Shown piece after piece: positions 48,001-57,000 of a stretch of 64,000 nt of DNA (positions within the stretch are counted from its first letter, which is position 1; each line of letters opens with the position of its first letter). The stretch is from Candidatus Aminicenantes bacterium (lineage in GTDB: Bacteria; Acidobacteriota; Aminicenantia; Aminicenantales; JAFGBC01): positions 2,408,172 to 2,472,171 of the forward strand of contig OY969696.1 of NCBI GenBank assembly GCA_963702005.1. The letters are read 5' to 3'. A program made the position numbers.

Positions 48001-51000
48001 GTGTCGCCCGGCATGGCCTGGTCGGCGAACAGCTCGTTTTCGGAGTTGACCTTGACGTCGGCGACGATCTGCTGGTCGGTCAAGCGGCGGAAATAGTTCG
48101 CGTTGAGCGGGTCGTCGAGCCCGGAGGCCCCGCCGTAGGTCGTCCTGTACAAGGTCGAGAAGTCCGAGATGATCCCGCCGCTGAGCTGGTTTTTGATCTG
48201 TAGCCAAGCGGAGTCGAACCCCGCCTCGGCCGCTTCCAGCGCTTGCTGCTGGAGCCGGACGTTCCCGGCGACCTCGGGGCCAGTCTGGGTTACAGCGATG
48301 ACGGTCAAGCCGACGGCCAGCAGGAAGGCGAGGACGAGGATGACGATGATCAGGCCCATGCCTTTCCGGAAGTTGGGTTTTATTCGTCTCATGGCGGCCT
48401 CTCTAATGTCGTGCCGTATTGTAGATGACCAGGGCATTATTCCGGATCGTGGCCGTGGACTCGAGCATGAAGCGGCGGTGCCAATCGTCCGTGGCCATCG
48501 CGGGCGAGTTCGACAGGGCCGGTCTCCGGTAGAGCTGGATGTCGGTGACCGGCGTCTTGGAAACGGTCAGGTAGGGGCGGGCCGTCCGGCCCAGGACCTG
48601 GATCCGGATCTGGCTGATGTGGCTCAGGAACTCGCGCTTGGTCTGGCGCGCTGCGTCGTCGTCGCCGGCTAAGATCGTCCAGTTCGCGTTGTCCCAGGGC
48701 TGGAATCCGTCGAGGGTGTCGTTGTTGTCGAAGTCGCCGTTGTATTCGAACTGGATGTTCTCGATATTCATGGCCAAGGGCATATGCTGGGGGACGCCGG
48801 CATCGGTGTTCGTCGACATGTAGAGGACGTTGGGGATGCCCAGATAGCCGTCCGTGCCCGCCGTCAGGTTGAGGCTGGGATAATCGTCGGGATCGCCGGT
48901 CGAATCCAGCCAGTATAACTTGGTCTGGGCCATAGTGATGATCCCGTCGTCCCAGCAGGTATCGTCGCAGCCCGTGTCGCTGAGGCCGCCGGGCGGGTTG
49001 ACGCCGGGCGCCTGGCCGGGGGCGAACACGACATGGGCGGTCCCGCTTCCGCAGCCGTGCATTTCATTTTGGGCGATGAACCGGAAGGCGAAGCAGCCCG
49101 GGCAGGCGGTCGACATGACAAGGACGGTTCTGTTCTCGTAGAATCCGGGGCAGTTGTAGGGCGCGTTCTCGAGTTCGTAATCGTAGAGAAAGGCCTCCGC
49201 CGAGCTCCCCTGGTAATTCCGGATGTGGAGGGCAAGCGGATCGTCGAAGTTGCCCATGAGACGGAGGGAGTCCGACGCTTCCGGGACGGGGCCGAAGGCG
49301 TCCTGGCCTTCGACCGCGTATCCCGAGATATCCGAGACGAGCCCGACGCCGGCCATCCGGGAGTCCCGCGACACGAAGTACATGGCGGAGCGGACGTCGT
49401 GCTGGATTTCAGAGAACTGGGTTTGGTCGACCGAGACCTTATTGCTCCGTTCGTAGAGGGCCAGCGTTCCCACGATGACGATCAGGAGAAGCGTGCTTCC
49501 CAGGAGGAGCTCGATCAGGGTGAAACCCGTTCGCGACAGGACCCTTGTTCGTCGGCGCGTCTTCATGGTTCTCACCTGCTGACGATCGTCTGGATCTGGG
49601 CCCGGACTTTATGGCCCTCCGGGTCGTTGATGAGGTCGTTGACGGGCGTCTCGAGCTGCTCGGCCGAGAAGACTGAAACTCGGACGTCCCAGAGACCCCC
49701 CGTGCTCAGGATCTGGCAGACCCTCCGGTAGTCGTAGAGCGGATTCCCCAGGCTATCGACGTCCCCGTTGACATTGATAAGATCGTCGATCGGGATTCCG
49801 GCCATGGCGCTGATCTCACCCACGGTCATGTTCCGGACCGCGTCAATCTGCTGCTGGGCCAGAAAGGTCGCGTTGGCGATCCTGTCCGCCTGCCGGTTCT
49901 GGAGGACGGCCAGCGTGAACAGCTCGGCCAAGCCCAGGACGGCGGTCCCCATCAGGGCCATCCCAACCAGGACCTCGATCAGAGTGAATCCCTTGCCCGT
50001 TTTCGATACTCGTTGAGTCATATTATGAACTCCTGGCCTTGGCGTAGAGGACGGAACCTCCCGCGTAGATGCTGACGATCCGTTCGTCGTCCTGGCCGCC
50101 CGATTTGAGCCTGTCGCTCTGCAGGGTGACGGTGTTTTGGTTCACGGTGAAGTCCGAGACATACCCGAGAGATGAGAAGGTTACGGCCCGGTTGGGGAGG
50201 CTGATCGTTGTCGCAAAATCGGAGGGGATGCTTTTTTCGATGAATCCGGCGAGCCTATCCCAAACGCCGGAGGTGGTCTCCTGCTCGATGAGATAGCGCC
50301 AGACGCCTTCGGTCTGGACGAAACGGATCCGGTGGTTGAGCCTAGTCCTTACGGCCATGAGCTTGGCCCGCTGCATTGTCGTCAGGATGTCCTTGGCCGA
50401 GTTATCGAACGTCCTTGTCCGTAGGGCGTTGTTGATGGCCGGAAAGATGGCGAGGGCGAAGGCGCCCAAGAGAGCGACCACGATCAGCATCTCGATGAAG
50501 GTATACCCTCGGGACAAGGACAAGTGTCCCGCCCAAACCCTGGATGTCTTCATGTTGGCCTGCCTCTCAAGGATGACGTCCCATCTAATTTTGTCGTCAT
50601 TGTATCCTTCCGTACCGACTTTTTCAATACGGAGCATCCCATTTCCCAGACTGATAGACAGGCCGTCTGCAATATATATCATCGAACCGGACGCTCCCTT
50701 TGGCAATCACCTTTTGGGAGGAATCCCGGGGGGTATTTGGGAGGACCCTGTCACCCGAAAGGGTTACCACCAGATTAGTCTCCGCCAAGGCTCATTTTTG
50801 TCGATTCCCTCTTGACAAGATGGCGTTTTCGCACTATTGTATGTTCGGGTGAACAAAATGGTAAACAAACTCAGGCGGGAACTGACTCCGAAGCAGGAGC
50901 GCGTCCTGAAGGTCCTGGAAGGCTTCGTCCTCGAGCGGGGGTACGCCCCCACGGTCCGCGAACTCGGGGCGCTCCTCGGCATCGCCAGCCCCTCGGCCGT

Positions 51001-54000: not shown

Positions 54001-57000
54001 GCCTCCCTGCGGCGGGCCGCGCCGGCCCCGGGCTTCCTCGAGGTCTGGCAGCTCGCCGCCGAGCTCGACGGCGCCTACGCCGAAAGCTCGCTCCACGTGG
54101 GCGGAGTCATCCTGACGCCGGCGCCGGTCGAACGGTTCCTGCCGCTCGAGACTTCGGCCAAAGGCCTCCTCATGTGCCACTTCGACAAGGACGCCGTCGA
54201 GGACCTGAAGCTCATCAAGCTCGACCTCCTCTCGGTTCGCGGCCTGGCCGCCGTCTCGGAGACGAAGGAGAGGCTCCGCCTCCGGAGCCTGCCCGAGGAC
54301 GACGTCGAGACCTGGAGTCTCGTCGCCAAGGCCCGGACGATCGGCTGCTTCCAAGTCGAGAGCCCGGCCATGATGAACCTTCTGCGTCGGATGAAGCCGC
54401 GGACCGTCCGGGACCTGACCCAGGCCCTGGCCCTGATCCGGCCCGGCCCGACCGAGAGCGGGATGAAGGAGGCCCTCCTCCGGAGCCGGGAGGGACGGGG
54501 CGAGGGCCGCGATCCCTTGTGGACGCGGGTCTTGCCCGAGACGGACGGCTTTCTCCTCTATGAGGAACAGGTCATGCAGGTCGCGGAGCGCGTGGCGGGC
54601 TTCCCCGCCGAGACGGGCGACCTCCTCCGCCGCTGCCTCAAACGGAAGGGCGGCGATCCGTCCCTCCGCGCCCGCTTCGTCCGGGAGGCGCTGGAGCGCG
54701 GCTATACGGACGACGAGGTCGAAAGGCTGTGGGCCGTCATGGAACGGTTCTCGTCCTACTCCTTTAACAAGGCTCACAGCGCCTCCTACGCCCACATGGC
54801 CTACCAGGCCGCCTACCTCAAGGCCCACCACCCCGTCCCGTACCTCGCGGCCGTCCTCAACGCCGGCGGCGGCTATTACGGCCTCGAGGAGTACGTCGAG
54901 GAGGCCAAGCGGTCGGGCATCCGCATCCTCGGCCCCGACGCGAACCGGAGCCGCGGCGGGTTCGAGGTCGAAGGGGCCGCCATCCGGGTCGGCCTGACCG
55001 CCATCAAGGGCCTCGGCCTCAAGACGGTCGAGGCCGTCCTCCGCGAGAGGGAGGGGGGAGGGCCGTTCGGCTCGGTCGAGGACTTCCTGGCGCGGGTCCG
55101 GCCGGCCAAGGCGGAGCTGCTGGCCCTCGTCCGGGCCGGCGTCTTCGATTCCCTCGAACCGCGCCGGACGCGGCAGATCCTCCGCTACGTCCAGGGCCTC
55201 GGGGATATGGAAGAGGTCGCGGACATCGACGCCAGGGAGAAGGAACGGATGCTGGCCGCCTCGCTGGGGTTCAGTCCCGGGACCGACCCGCTCGAGTTCT
55301 TCGAAGGGAAGCGGCCCGGGCTCCGCATCCGCGACCTCCCGGACCGGGTCGGCCGAACGGTCGAGCTCGTCGTCCGCGTCGTGGACGCCCGGGAGAAGAG
55401 AGTCAACGGCGGACGGGCCTCTAAGTATTTCTACCTGTTCGAGGACGAGACCGGCCTCCTCGAGGGCGTGAGCGAGGCACGGCTGCTCGCCTTCGGGACG
55501 CCGCCGGCCTGCTGCCTGCGGGGCGAGGTCCGCTCCGCCGGGACGGGCCGGGTCAAGCTCCTCGGTTGTTCCTTCCTCCGCTCTTTCTGACCCGTTCGCC
55601 GATGCTACCCCGCCTTGAAAGGCGGGGCTAAAAATCGGAGCCCCGCCTTTCAAGGCGGGGACGAGAAGCGACACTTTTGTACTCAGCCCTTTTAGCAAGG
55701 AATGGGGCTGAGTAGGCTCAGGGTTAACCCTAATCAAGCCCCGGCATTCAGCACTCATGAACCGGAAACGGTTCATGAGTACAGTCGCTCCAATGCCTGT
55801 ACTACGCGGATCCCACAGAATTGAGTCCATGGAGCTCCAGGCCGGGGAGCAGCCTTGCAGCACCCATACTAAACCGTTTCCCGTTTAGTATGGGTACTGC
55901 GAAACGCCTGCACTCATGGCTTCCATGGGTGTCGATGGGTTGACTCAACTCTGGGAAATATCGACGCGGGCCACGGAAGGATTCGGCGTCAGGCGGATCG
56001 TCGTCCGCAGCGCCGTCGTCCTGGGACGCGCCGGAGGTGCTCTGCCGACGTTCGAACGGATGTTCCGGCTCCGCCTGGCCGGCATTCCGGGCGGCGGCCG
56101 CCAATGGTTCCCCTGGATTCATCTCATGGACGAGGTCCGGGCCATGGTCTTTCTCTTGGAGCGGGACGACCTGAGCGGCGTCTTCAACCTCGCCGCGCCC
56201 TCGGCCGTTCCGATGGCCGGATTCATCCGCGCTTCAAAATCTGTTCGCCGCCGCCGGCCCGGAGTCTTAATTAGACGAGGATCTCTTTAGGGATGGGCCG
56301 CGAATTGTAGTGGGAGGCCATGGAGCGCGAATAGCCGCCCGCGCAGAGCACGGCCAGGATGTCGCCCCGGCGGGGCATCGGCATAAGCCGCTCCTTGCCG
56401 AAGACGTCGCCCGTTTCGCAGAGATGGCCGGCCACGGTCACCCGGACTTTCTTCGGCCCGTCGATGCGGCTCGCGTTGACGATTTCGTGGGAGGCCTGGG
56501 CGTAGACGGCGGGACGCGGCACCGTGTTGAAGGTCCCGGCGTTGACGCAGGCGATGACATGACCGTAGCTCTCTTTGACGTAGACGACCCGGAGAAGGAG
56601 GACGCCGGCATCGGCGACGAGGGCTTTGCCCGGTTCCACGGCCAGCGCCTTGACGGAGAGTCCGGACTTGGCCATGGTCCGGACGATGAGGCGGACATAG
56701 TCCTCAACCGGAAATAATCCCTGGGTCCGGTAGAACCTCGGTCCGAACCCGCCCCCGAAGTCCAGAAACTCGAGGCGGACACCGCTTTTCTCGAGCTCGA
56801 CGGCTTTGCGGACGATCCTGCGGACGGCCTCCTTGACGGCCGGAAAATCTTCGTGGACCCAGCCCGAGCCGAGATGCTGGTGGAGGCCGACCGGGACGAA
56901 GCCGAACCGGATGGCCCGCTCGAAGACCCGGCCGACCTTGGCCTCCTCGACGCCGAACTTGACGGGCGTCCCGTCCGCGGATCTCTGCCCGGCCGTGACG

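What the first reader, a model, noticed from the sequence alone, without database searches (positions are those of the whole stretch)
50813..55590. imuA-less SOS mutagenesis cassette: lexA, a Y-family polymerase with intact catalytic residues, and dnaE2
lexA, a 435-aa Y-family polymerase and a DnaE2-type alpha subunit are arranged head-to-tail (gaps of 5 and 9 nt), consistent with one operon. Known imuA-imuB-dnaE2 cassettes carry a RecA-like imuA and a catalytically dead ImuB. Here there is no imuA, and the Y-family protein retains the DinB catalytic acidic residues (VHVDIDAFF; SLDEAYLD). So it may be an active Pol IV-like enzyme co-regulated with DnaE2 under LexA.
Basis: partly seen in the sequence, partly recalled or inferred. 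Interest (0 to 1): 0.55.

Follow-up and report, generated by a model that had tools for sequence, protein, structure and literature searches.

The report
LexA–Pol IV–DnaE2 damage-response operon

Summary
Three same-strand genes lie head to tail. They are lexA (true start ATG 50858), a 434-aa Y-family polymerase (51481-52785) and a 931-aa C-family alpha-like polymerase (52795-55590). The gaps are 5 and 9 nt.

- **Y-family protein:** it passes NCBI's Pol IV equivalog cut-off and keeps the DxD and DE catalytic residues. All 20 related Aminicenantes loci keep them too.
- **Alpha-like protein:** it keeps the palm aspartates. Its PHP motifs are degenerate and it ends at an OB-like fold with no tau-binding domain. 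It groups with DnaE2, not DnaE1, in 100/100 NJ bootstraps.
- **ImuA:** none was found in the window or in the related loci.

ImuA-less "DnaE2B" modules with active or inactive PolY were described by Timinskas and Venclovas (2019) and in NAR (2026).

New here:
- the Aminicenantes lineage itself;
- an invariant PolY C-terminal tail (GFVLKTASLTK). A related tail marks PolYs that sit next to alpha-like genes in metagenomes (55 of 72 loci);
- a conserved operator-like repeat over the lexA start codon;
- a conserved hairpin between lexA and polY.

Expression, enzyme activity and complex formation are untested.

The parts
50812..50840 (+). Sigma-70-like promoter: TTGACA (50812-50817), 17-nt spacer, TATTGT (50835-50840).
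   Evidence: Consensus scan gives 10/12 matches. TTGACA-17-TAT..T is conserved upstream of lexA in 19 Aminicenantes loci.
50842..50867 (+). Candidate LexA operator. Direct repeat GGTGAACA (50848-55) / GGTAAACA (50860-67), 12-bp period, spanning the RBS and ATG. In this window it also forms the palindrome TGTTCGGGTGAACA (50842-55).
   Evidence: GGTGAACAAAATGGTRAACA is near-invariant in 19 loci. It is the only strong PWM hit in 377 kb of Aminicenantes DNA. The palindrome equals the Verrucomicrobia LexA motif TGTTC-N4-GAACA (PMC4951493). LexA binding is inferred, not shown.
50858..51475 (+). lexA (205 aa from the conserved ATG), with HTH and S24 autopeptidase domains.
   Evidence: TIGR00498 scores 161.8 bits, above its cut-off; Pfam LexA_DNA_bind plus Peptidase_S24. 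The VAAG cleavage site, the GKSM serine and the TLKRL lysine are read from the translation. The start is fixed by the alignment of 19 loci.
51484..51561 (+). Conserved long hairpin in the lexA-polY spacer (GCCGC..CTCCGCTCCTC..apical stem..GAGATTCCAGAGGACGCGCGGC). Here it overlaps the polY start codons and N-terminal extension.
   Evidence: RNA fold of -42.8 kcal/mol, z = -4.3. The same element occurs once, and only in this spacer, in L004, L006, L008, L011 and L019. There are 31 predicted pairs, 11 with compensatory changes. No Rfam match.
51481..52785 (+). polY: DinB/Pol IV-type Y-family polymerase, 434 aa, with catalytic D37, D39, D132 and E133 and steric-gate F42.
   Evidence: NF002677 scores 305 bits against a cut-off of 256. 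Alignment to solved DinBs. Catalytic motifs are conserved in 20/20 Aminicenantes loci. In the NJ tree it lies with the active DinB-type enzymes and outside the inactive PolY/ImuB cluster (83/100 for that split; its exact position among the active enzymes is unresolved).
52603..52617 (+). Beta-clamp-binding-like motif PLALF (residues 375-379) in PolY.
   Evidence: P-L-[AS]-L-F is conserved in the Aminicenantes PolY alignment. The assignment is by resemblance to the QL[SD]LF consensus (own knowledge).
52630..52710 (+). RecA-NT-like motif (residues 384-410, EREERLGRALDAVRSKYGFGSVLTVRE) in PolY.
   Evidence: hhalign against the published RecA N-terminus alignment gives probability 73%, P = 3e-5, and 0/30 column shuffles reach it. 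Plain hmmsearch and Pfam DUF4113 were negative.
52711..52782 (+). PolY C-terminal tail, ending in the near-invariant RGFVLKTASLTK.
   Evidence: It ends in LKTASLT[KR] in all 20 Aminicenantes loci aligned (19 loci plus this window); the preceding residues vary slightly (RG/HG, F/Y, V/I). About 35 of 150 distant PolY representatives share G[FY]xL[KR]T[PA]SL[ST]. Genes carrying such tails are followed by alpha-like genes in 5/5 look-ups and in 55/72 metagenome loci.
52795..55590 (+). DnaE2-type (DnaE2B-like) C-family polymerase, 931 aa, with palm aspartates D334, D336 and D477. The PHP motifs are degenerate, the C-terminus is OB-like (residues ~855-930), and there is no tau-binding domain.
   Evidence: Pfam domains. 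Alignment to Taq and E. coli alpha. Invariant columns in 25 homologs. NJ split from DnaE1-like sequences at 100/100. Five-strand C-terminal barrel with pLDDT 70-87 and OB-fold Foldseek hits.
55608..55660 (.). Twin GC-rich hairpins (CCCCGCCTT..AAGGCGGGG, twice) 18 nt after the alpha stop codon. Probable bidirectional terminator at the operon end.
   Evidence: Inverted repeats at 100% complementarity. Terminator-like call on the - strand. The + strand lacks a clean U-tract, so function is inferred.

Best explanation
This is a LexA-autoregulated SOS operon of an Aminicenantes bacterium. It encodes an ImuA- and ImuB-independent translesion/mutagenesis module of the published 'DnaE2B-PolY(-RecA)' type.

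Proposed mechanism, with each step marked:
1. LexA, the first gene, represses its own promoter. It does so through an operator lying between the -10 box and codon 4 (inferred).
2. After DNA damage, RecA-stimulated self-cleavage of LexA derepresses the operon (inferred from the family).
3. This yields a catalytically competent Pol IV-like PolY. It carries a clamp-binding-like motif, a RecA-NT-like motif and a lineage-invariant C-terminal tail (sequence shown; activity inferred).
4. It also yields a DnaE2-type polymerase with an intact polymerase site. That protein has a degenerate PHP domain, no tau-binding domain and no evident clamp motif (sequence shown).
5. Most likely PolY brings the pair to the clamp and to RecA-coated gaps and inserts opposite lesions, and the DnaE2-type enzyme extends. 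The PolY tail would be the docking element (inferred by analogy with ImuB-DnaE2 and from the tail-alpha gene association).
For: - **Gene identities and intact active sites:**
- **Conserved order:** lexA-polY-alpha in all 20 Aminicenantes loci with upstream DNA, in at least two genomic contexts.
- **Tight coupling:** the polY-alpha gap is 3-19 nt in 13 of the 19 Aminicenantes loci.
- **Promoter and operator-like repeat:** conserved.
- **Phylogeny of alpha:** DnaE1-like versus (Aminicenantes + iPolY-type + canonical DnaE2) splits at 100/100. Aminicenantes joins the ImuA-less DnaE2 group at 82/100.
- **PolY is DinB-like, not ImuB-like:**
- **RecA-NT-like motif:** hhalign P = 3e-5.
- **Tail links PolY to alpha:** tail-bearing PolYs are followed by alpha-like genes in 5/5 look-ups and 55/72 metagenome loci, against 0/2 tail-less controls.
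- **No ImuA:** none in the window or the related loci.
- **Published framework:** DnaE2B occurs in genomes lacking imuA/imuB, partners with active or inactive PolY carrying RecA-NT, and AlphaFold models support complexes (PMC6511836, PMC12926913).
Against: - Nothing here shows transcription, LexA binding, polymerase activity or a physical PolY-alpha contact.
- The operator motif was found only at the cassette, so it is not confirmed on other SOS genes.
- A stable hairpin lies between lexA and polY. The lexA-polY gap reaches 495 nt in relatives, so read-through may be attenuated.
- 17 of 72 tail-bearing PolY loci have no adjacent alpha gene.
- Absence of imuA/imuB and presence of a separate dnaE1 could not be checked genome-wide.
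- The NJ trees are simple distance trees with long branches.
- The AF2 model of alpha is poor (pLDDT 59.5).
Confidence: 0.72

Rival explanations
1. The two polymerases are only co-regulated. Pol IV and the DnaE2-type enzyme act separately on different lesions, and the operon is a convenient SOS packaging with no complex.
For: PolY looks like a complete stand-alone Pol IV: it passes the equivalog cut-off and has its own clamp motif. lexA-dinB operons without dnaE2 exist, for example in Geobacter (PMC6511836). 17 of 72 tail-bearing PolYs have no adjacent alpha gene.
Against: Gene order is strictly conserved and the polY-alpha gap is 3-19 nt. The extreme C-terminal tail of PolY is invariant, is absent from ordinary DinBs and tracks with a downstream alpha gene. 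Alpha has no recognisable clamp motif of its own, by reading. Published multimer models support DnaE2B-PolY-RecA complexes.
Confidence: 0.2
2. PolY is functionally an ImuB-like adaptor. Despite its intact motifs, its own catalysis is dispensable, and only the DnaE2-type enzyme synthesises DNA.
For: Within the wider tail-bearing PolY family the catalytic triad is often eroded. Only 24 of 35 representatives are intact, against 110 of 116 tail-less ones. Most of the LRTPSL subgroup has DD instead of DE. The nearest DnaE2 relatives pair with inactive PolYs.
Against: In Aminicenantes the DxDAFF and S[LI]DE motifs are kept in 20/20 loci. The PolY clade has very short branches, which indicates purifying selection on a working enzyme.
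Confidence: 0.06
3. The alpha-like gene is the cell's replicative DnaE1, or its only C-family polymerase, rather than an accessory error-prone enzyme.
For: The best NCBIfam score is to a DnaE1 model (515 bits, against 475 for the DnaE2 model), and the palm aspartates are intact.
Against: Both scores are about half of the curated cut-offs. The protein sits behind lexA, has no tau-binding C-terminal domain and has degenerate PHP motifs. It separates from DnaE1-like sequences in 100/100 bootstraps. A survey of over 3000 genomes found a dedicated replicative C-family polymerase in every species (PMC12926913).
Confidence: 0.02

Closest known systems
DnaE2B-PolY-RecA module of Bacteroidetes ('Bacteroid_PolY2'->DnaE2, e.g. 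Cellulophaga algicola; Timinskas & Venclovas 2019; NAR 2026)
   Same: [quoted passage not shown] There is no ImuA, ImuB or ImuB-C.
   Different: The Bacteroidetes operons are listed without a canonical lexA. Their tail reads ..NPFNGEPPIVLAHRKQ, not ..RGFVLKTASLTK. The Aminicenantes alpha forms its own deep clade, at most 35% identical to anything outside it except L091 at 45%.
LexA->iPolY(gbDinB2-like)->DnaE2 cassettes of Geobacter, Desulfobacterota, Nitrospira and Spirochaetes
   Same: Same gene order, with lexA first. No ImuA. A RecA-NT-like motif is present. Their DnaE2s are the nearest outgroup to the Aminicenantes alpha (82/100).
   Different: Their PolY has lost DxD and DE and ends right after the RecA-NT-like motif with no tail. 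Here PolY is intact and tailed.
Canonical ImuA-ImuB-DnaE2 (ImuC) mutasome (Mycobacterium, Caulobacter, Pseudomonas; references here from Rhizobium and Ralstonia plasmids)
   Same: A LexA-controlled pairing of a Y-family protein with a second Pol III alpha homolog. The Y-family partner carries the clamp and RecA-type interaction motifs.
   Different: There is no RecA-like ImuA and no ImuB-C beta-barrel. The Y-family partner is active (19-20% identity to ImuB). Alpha lies outside the canonical DnaE2 clade.
Stand-alone DNA polymerase IV (DinB), e.g. E. coli DinB and PDB 7yll
   Same: Same fold, catalytic residues and steric-gate Phe. Identity is 33% to E. coli DinB and 42% to 7yll.
   Different: An extra RecA-NT-like motif and an invariant tail. 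It is obligately linked to lexA and an alpha-like gene in this lineage.

Membership tests
Canonical imuA-imuB-dnaE2 cassette | RecA-like ImuA/ImuA' gene in the cassette | tested here: not met
   phmmer with Rhizobium and Ralstonia ImuA found nothing in the 64-kb window or in any Aminicenantes locus.
Canonical imuA-imuB-dnaE2 cassette | Catalytically dead Y-family ImuB with a C-terminal ImuB-C domain | tested here: not met
   DxD and DE are intact. Identity to ImuB is 19-20%. The C-terminal tail is only 24 aa, not a ~100-aa ImuB-C.
Canonical imuA-imuB-dnaE2 cassette | DnaE2 of the ImuA/ImuB-associated clade (DnaE2A) | tested here: not met
   The NJ tree places the Aminicenantes alpha with ImuA-less DnaE2s (82/100) and not with the Rhizobium/Ralstonia DnaE2s (17/100). 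The NCBIfam DnaE2 model scores 475 against a cut-off of 939.
DnaE2B-PolY-RecA module (PMC6511836; PMC12926913) | Non-replicative C-family polymerase on the DnaE2 side of the DnaE1/DnaE2 split | tested here: met
   100/100 bootstrap split from DnaE1-like sequences. No tau-binding domain; it ends at an OB-like barrel.
DnaE2B-PolY-RecA module (PMC6511836; PMC12926913) | Conserved adjacency to a Y-family polymerase with intact active site | tested here: met
   20/20 loci keep the adjacency, and the polY-alpha gap is 3-19 nt in 13 of the 19 Aminicenantes loci.
DnaE2B-PolY-RecA module (PMC6511836; PMC12926913) | RecA-NT-like motif in the PolY C-terminal region | tested here: met
   hhalign probability 73%, P = 3e-5, 24 columns, and 0/30 shuffles reach it. 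Support is moderate: hmmsearch and Pfam DUF4113 were negative.
DnaE2B-PolY-RecA module (PMC6511836; PMC12926913) | Genome lacks imuA and imuB; RecA serves as the third subunit; the proteins form a complex | not testable with these tools
   Only at most 10 kb per side around each cassette could be read. No multimer modelling tool was available.
DNA polymerase IV (DinB) | Curated equivalog score and catalytic D/D/E plus steric-gate aromatic residue | tested here: met
   NF002677 scores 305.2 bits against a cut-off of 256. D37, D39, D132, E133 and F42 align with solved DinBs.
LexA repressor | HTH plus S24 domains above the equivalog cut-off; Ala-Gly site and Ser/Lys dyad | tested here: met
   TIGR00498 scores 161.8 against a cut-off of 110.95. 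VAAG, GKSM and TLKRL are read from the translation.
LexA repressor | Binds an operator in its own promoter and in other SOS genes | tested here: inconclusive
   A conserved repeat lies at the promoter. No second site was found in 377 kb, and no recA or uvrA promoter was available.
Replicative DnaE1 | Equivalog score, tau-binding C-terminal domain, internal clamp motif | tested here: not met
   NF004226 scores 515 against a cut-off of 1002. The protein ends at residue 931, right after the OB-like fold. No QxxLF-type motif occurs at the equivalent position.

The most novel reading that the evidence does not exclude
The Aminicenantes cassette, together with a much wider set of uncultivated lineages, may represent a distinct two-active-polymerase mutasome. 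In it a short invariant PolY C-terminal peptide (G-[FY]-x-L-[KR]-T-[PA]-S-L-[ST]-x) would be the dedicated docking site for a DnaE2B polymerase. The family would also capture the stepwise decay of the Y-family active site (DE to DD, DxD to DxN) that led to ImuB-like dead adaptors. A start-codon-spanning direct-repeat LexA operator and a structured lexA-polY spacer would add lineage-specific control.
Probability: 0.3. Interest if true: 0.5.

Novelty: new member of a known kind. Interest (0 to 1): 0.3.

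Why it matters
- **Reach:** it extends the recently defined ImuA/ImuB-independent DnaE2B-PolY modules to Aminicenantes, an abundant, uncultivated sediment and subsurface lineage. It shows that a canonical lexA can head such a module with an active PolY.
- **A testable handle:** the conserved PolY tail, and its strong but incomplete link to a downstream alpha-like gene, gives a concrete way to ask how a Y-family enzyme and a C-family enzyme are coupled.
- **Evolution:** active, half-decayed and dead PolY partners occur in neighbouring branches of the tree, which bears on how ImuB evolved.
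- **Limit:** none of this changes the known picture of SOS mutagenesis. It fills in a branch of it.

Tried and rejected
- **Exact-protein look-up of the window alpha:** not on record. A 99% relative was used instead.
- **ImuA search:** two references found nothing. ImuA is divergent, so this is weak negative evidence.
- **RecA-NT motif:** plain hmmsearch with a RecA-NT profile (best 1.3 bits; shuffles reach 2.4) and Pfam DUF4113 did not detect it. Only profile-profile comparison did.
- **Operator PWM scan:** 377 kb of Aminicenantes DNA gave no second site, so the regulon could not be outlined. A collection-wide scan for the operator was considered and dropped, because about 350 chance matches were expected.
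- **AF2 model of alpha:** low confidence (pLDDT 59.5). It was used only for the C-terminal barrel.
- **Rfam and tRNA scans of the window:** empty.
- **The '+ strand terminator' at 51585:** rejected, because it lies inside the codons for the DIDAFF catalytic motif.
- **The 1536-aa antisense ORF 51253-55863 and other overlapping ORFs:** high-GC shadow frames.
- **Co-occurrence of a dnaE1 in the same genome:** could not be shown.
- **Is the palindrome TGTTC-N4-GAACA the family operator?** Rejected as general, because only this window and L004 have the left half.

Full report
**What is in the sequence**

Three genes lie head to tail on the + strand between 50.8 and 55.6 kb.

The first is a LexA. 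TIGR00498 scores 161.8 bits against a cut-off of 110.95, and Pfam finds LexA_DNA_bind plus Peptidase_S24. The translation shows the usual VAAG cleavage site, a GKSM serine and a TLKRL lysine.

The second gene (51481-52785, 434 aa) is a Y-family polymerase. It passes NCBI's curated 'DNA polymerase IV' equivalog (NF002677, 305 bits against 256). Residue by residue it aligns with solved DinB structures. D37, D39, D132 and E133 and the steric-gate F42 are all in place.

The third gene (52795-55590, 931 aa) has the PHP, DNA_pol3_alpha, finger and HHH_6 domains of a Pol III alpha subunit. It keeps the palm aspartates in PPDIDLDF and KLDLL.

- The conserved lexA start is ATG 50858.
- The first ~28 residues of the Y-polymerase are not conserved in relatives.
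- The alpha-like protein reaches only about half of the curated cut-offs of both the DnaE1 and the DnaE2 NCBIfam models.

**Where it comes from and how conserved it is**

The alpha-like protein has more than 100 database clusters at 60-99% identity. Those that carry a taxonomic name are called Candidatus Aminicenantes, Aminicenantales or Acidobacteriota.

A scan of one genome per GTDB species returned 25 loci at 58-91% identity. Those with informative names are Aminicenantes or Acidobacteriota MAGs; a few carry uninformative or evidently wrong labels. Identity then drops abruptly to 35% or less for everything else.

In all 20 loci with enough upstream DNA the order is lexA, polY, alpha. The cassette sits in at least two genomic contexts. 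One is next to a ribosomal-protein/secY cluster (L001). The other is next to an ornithine/DAP-decarboxylase-DUF72 pair, as in this window.

The polY-alpha gap is 3-19 nt in 13 of the 19 Aminicenantes loci. The lexA-polY gap varies from 0 to 495 nt.

Every Aminicenantes PolY keeps DxDAFF and S[LI]DE.

**What the two polymerases are**

I built a neighbour-joining tree of 82 alpha homologs. References were E. coli DnaE1 and canonical DnaE2s from annotated imuA-imuB-dnaE2 cassettes on Rhizobium and Ralstonia plasmids. The tree gives these results:
- DnaE1-like sequences separate from everything else in 100/100 bootstraps.
- The Aminicenantes proteins are monophyletic (100/100).
- They join the ImuA-less DnaE2s of Nitrospira, Desulfobacterota and others in 82/100.

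Architecture agrees with this placement:
- The PHP match is partial and the first motifs are degenerate (FVPLRVHSVFS; ADVGNL).
- The protein ends right after a five-stranded barrel. That barrel finds OB folds in the PDB.
- There is no tau-binding domain, and I see no QxxLF-type clamp motif at the DnaE1 position.

The whole-protein AF2 model is poor (pLDDT 59.5). I use it only for the C-terminal barrel.

PolY is 42% identical to the DinB of PDB 7yll and 33% to E. coli DinB. It is only 19-20% identical to ImuB and 24-26% to the inactive 'gbDinB2-like' PolYs. Its clade has very short branches.

No ImuA-like ORF was found in the window or in any Aminicenantes locus.

**Regulatory anatomy**

A TTGACA-17-TATTGT promoter (50812-50840) is the best sigma-70-like site in the region. 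It is conserved in 19 loci.

Directly after the -10 box lies a near-invariant 20-mer, GGTGAACAAAATGGTRAACA. It is a 12-bp-period direct repeat of GGTGAACA / GGTRAACA. It covers the Shine-Dalgarno-like GGTGA, the ATG and codons 2-4, so the MVN(K) N-terminus of LexA is encoded by the element itself.

In this window the first repeat is also the right half of a perfect TGTTC-N4-GAACA palindrome. That sequence is the experimentally defined Verrucomicrobia LexA motif (PMC4951493). Other Aminicenantes loci lack the left half. A more distant cassette (L091) again has GAACA/TGTTC elements after its -10 box.

A weight-matrix scan found no second strong site in 377 kb of Aminicenantes DNA. LexA autoregulation through this element is therefore a well-motivated inference, not a result.

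No internal promoter-like site or credible + strand terminator was found inside the cassette. There is, however, a stable hairpin at 51484-51561 (-42.8 kcal/mol, z = -4.3). It recurs, always in the lexA-polY spacer and nowhere else, in five other loci, with compensatory changes in its apical stem. In this window it overlaps the polY start codons. It could attenuate read-through or translation.

Twin GC hairpins follow the alpha stop codon.

**The PolY C-terminus**

After the little finger, the Aminicenantes PolYs share three elements:
- a P-L-[AS]-L-F clamp-type motif;
- a segment ERLGxAxDxVRxKYGFGSxLTVRE;
- a 24-residue tail whose end, RGFVLKTASLTK, is conserved with only conservative substitutions; LKTASLT[KR] is kept in all 20 loci aligned.

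The middle segment matches the published RecA N-terminus alignment in a profile-profile comparison. Probability is 73%, P = 3e-5, and 0 of 30 column shuffles reach it. A plain HMM search and Pfam DUF4113 do not detect it.

An exhaustive HMMER search of 1.8 billion representative proteins showed that about 35 of the best 150 PolYs (38-52% identity) end in the same kind of tail, G-[FY]-x-L-[KRH]-T-[PA]-[SC]-L-[ST]-x.

All five such proteins whose contigs I looked up are followed at once by an alpha-like gene. Three of them have lexA upstream. Two tail-less controls are not followed by an alpha-like gene.

A metagenome scan for G[FY][VIQ]LRTPSL[TS] found 415 stretches. Of 72 retrieved loci with at least 150 nt downstream, 55 have an alpha-like gene within 1.5 kb on the same strand. 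In about 20 of these a DUF72 homolog also lies in the locus and the polY-alpha gap (about 0.5-1.2 kb) would fit such a gene between them; its exact position was not extracted. The other 17 have none.

The inactive PolYs of the Nitrospira and Desulfobacterota cassettes lack this tail.

Within the tail-bearing family the catalytic triad is intact in 24 of 35 representatives, against 110 of 116 tail-less ones. Most of the LRTPSL subgroup has DD in place of DE. Aminicenantes is a subgroup that has kept the full active site.

**How it most likely works**

Shown:
- gene identities;
- intact catalytic motifs in both polymerases;
- conserved order and tight spacing;
- the conserved promoter and repeat;
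- the conserved PolY motifs;
- the statistical link between the tail and a downstream alpha-like gene.

Inferred:
- LexA represses the operon through the repeat, and RecA-induced cleavage derepresses it.
- PolY binds the clamp and RecA and inserts opposite lesions.
- The DnaE2-type enzyme, which lacks its own clamp and tau contacts, is recruited by PolY, plausibly through the tail, and extends.

This mirrors the ImuB-DnaE2 logic, but with a live Y-family partner and RecA in place of ImuA. The main rival is simple co-regulation of two independent enzymes. I rate the identity of the module as near certain and the physical-complex step at roughly even odds or a little better.

**Comparison with what is known**

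Timinskas and Venclovas (2019, PMC6511836) already reported ImuA-less variants. These include LexA->iPolY(gbDinB2-like)->DnaE2 in Deltaproteobacteria, Nitrospirae and Spirochaetes. They also include PolY(active)->DnaE2 in Bacteroidetes. All have a RecA-NT-like motif, and none has imuA anywhere in the genome.

The 2026 survey (PMC12926913) formalised this. DnaE2A goes with ImuA-ImuB. DnaE2B goes with active or inactive PolY plus RecA in genomes without imuA/imuB. DnaE2X is a third group. AlphaFold complex models scored above accepted thresholds.

The present cassette fits the DnaE2B-PolY-RecA type. It fails the membership tests for the canonical ImuABC cassette: no ImuA, an active PolY without ImuB-C, and an alpha outside the canonical DnaE2 clade.

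Aminicenantes does not appear in the 2019 tables. No paper in the searchable library combines Aminicenantes with DnaE2.

What appears not to be described:
- this lineage;
- the combination of lexA first with an active PolY;
- the specific tail and its link to alpha-like genes;
- the operator-like repeat;
- the spacer hairpin.

I could not obtain the 'acPolY2-like' or 'Bacteroid_PolY2' full sequences. The relation of the tail-bearing family to those published groups is therefore open.

**Verdict**

The phenomenon is a new member, in an uncultivated phylum, of a kind already in the literature, so the interest is modest.

Noticed in passing
window 51484-51561 (+); also L004 ~2780-2860, L006 ~830-910, L008 ~2110-2190, L011 ~1705-1780, L019 ~4350-4430: A conserved long imperfect hairpin (GCCGC..CTCCGCTCCTC..variable apical stem..GAGATTCCAGAGGACGCGCGGC) occurs once per locus and only in the lexA-polY spacer. 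It folds at -42.8 kcal/mol (z = -4.3), shows compensatory changes and has no Rfam match. In this window it is read through as the N-terminal extension of PolY and pairs over its ATG codons. In L011 and L019 a T-run follows it.
   Followed up: partly
window 57531-58478 (-); L086 2895-3701; many of L111-L172: A DUF72 gene recurs near or inside these cassettes. It lies about 2 kb downstream on the opposite strand here and in at least 9 Aminicenantes loci, and between lexA and iPolY on a Desulfosarcina plasmid. About 20 metagenome loci also hold a DUF72 homolog, with a polY-alpha gap large enough to contain it. DUF72 is a TIM barrel related to UV-damage endonuclease and was noted near PolB2 mutasome genes (PMC11791011).
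   Followed up: partly
window 50858-55590 versus flanks: The three cassette genes are richer in G+C (68.3-70.5%, GC3 91-92%) than neighbouring genes (61-67.5%, GC3 80-85%). This is a compositional step of unclear cause.
   Followed up: no
window 55591-55915: The 325-nt non-coding stretch after alpha is packed with perfect inverted repeats: twin hairpins at 55608-55660, then 55680-55714, 55753-55780 and 55857-55900. Only the first pair looks like a terminator. The rest are unexplained.
   Followed up: no
L001 5617-6662 (GCA_041304185.1): In one Aminicenantes genome the cassette sits beside a ribosomal-protein/adk/secY cluster with only a 154-aa SecY fragment. Its 'lexA' is called as a 123-aa S24 peptidase domain without the HTH, and the operator repeat is absent. 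This is either a rearranged, possibly deregulated copy or an assembly problem.
   Followed up: no
P0133, P0138, P0144, P0145, P0153, P0157, P0190, P0205, P0210; L100-L179: Within the tail-bearing PolY family the active site is often partly eroded (SLDD instead of SLDE, DMNAFL, AEIAAFF, steric-gate F to L). 50 of 62 full-length LRTPSL-type PolYs have DxD but no DE. It looks like a graded series from active DinB to dead adaptor.
   Followed up: partly
L096 4781-10875 and L097 (GCA_016935765.1): A distant cassette carries extra small genes inside it: lexA, a 23S_rRNA_IVP four-helix-bundle protein, polY, a PDDEXK_3 nuclease-like protein, then alpha. L093 has an acetyltransferase-like gene between lexA and polY.
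   Followed up: no
window 44274-50706 (-): Divergently upstream of the cassette is a type IV pilus minor-pilin operon (N_methyl prepilins, PilW). It ends in a 1191-aa PilY1 with FG-GAP repeats in front of the PilY1 beta-propeller.
   Followed up: no
window 55916-56290 (+): This short ORF matches only the C-terminal third of the NAD-dependent epimerase family (profile positions 156-240, below the gathering score). It is probably a truncated or mis-started gene. The 99%-identical contig L004 has a 217-aa call here.
   Followed up: no
L030 3660-9246 (DATKXY010000130.1, labelled 'archaeon'): This locus has a lexA, active polY, alpha cassette (alpha 35% identical to the window's). Its PolY lacks the conserved tail, and both intergenic gaps are long (298 and 228 nt). 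The record's 'archaeon' label is probably a binning error.
   Followed up: no
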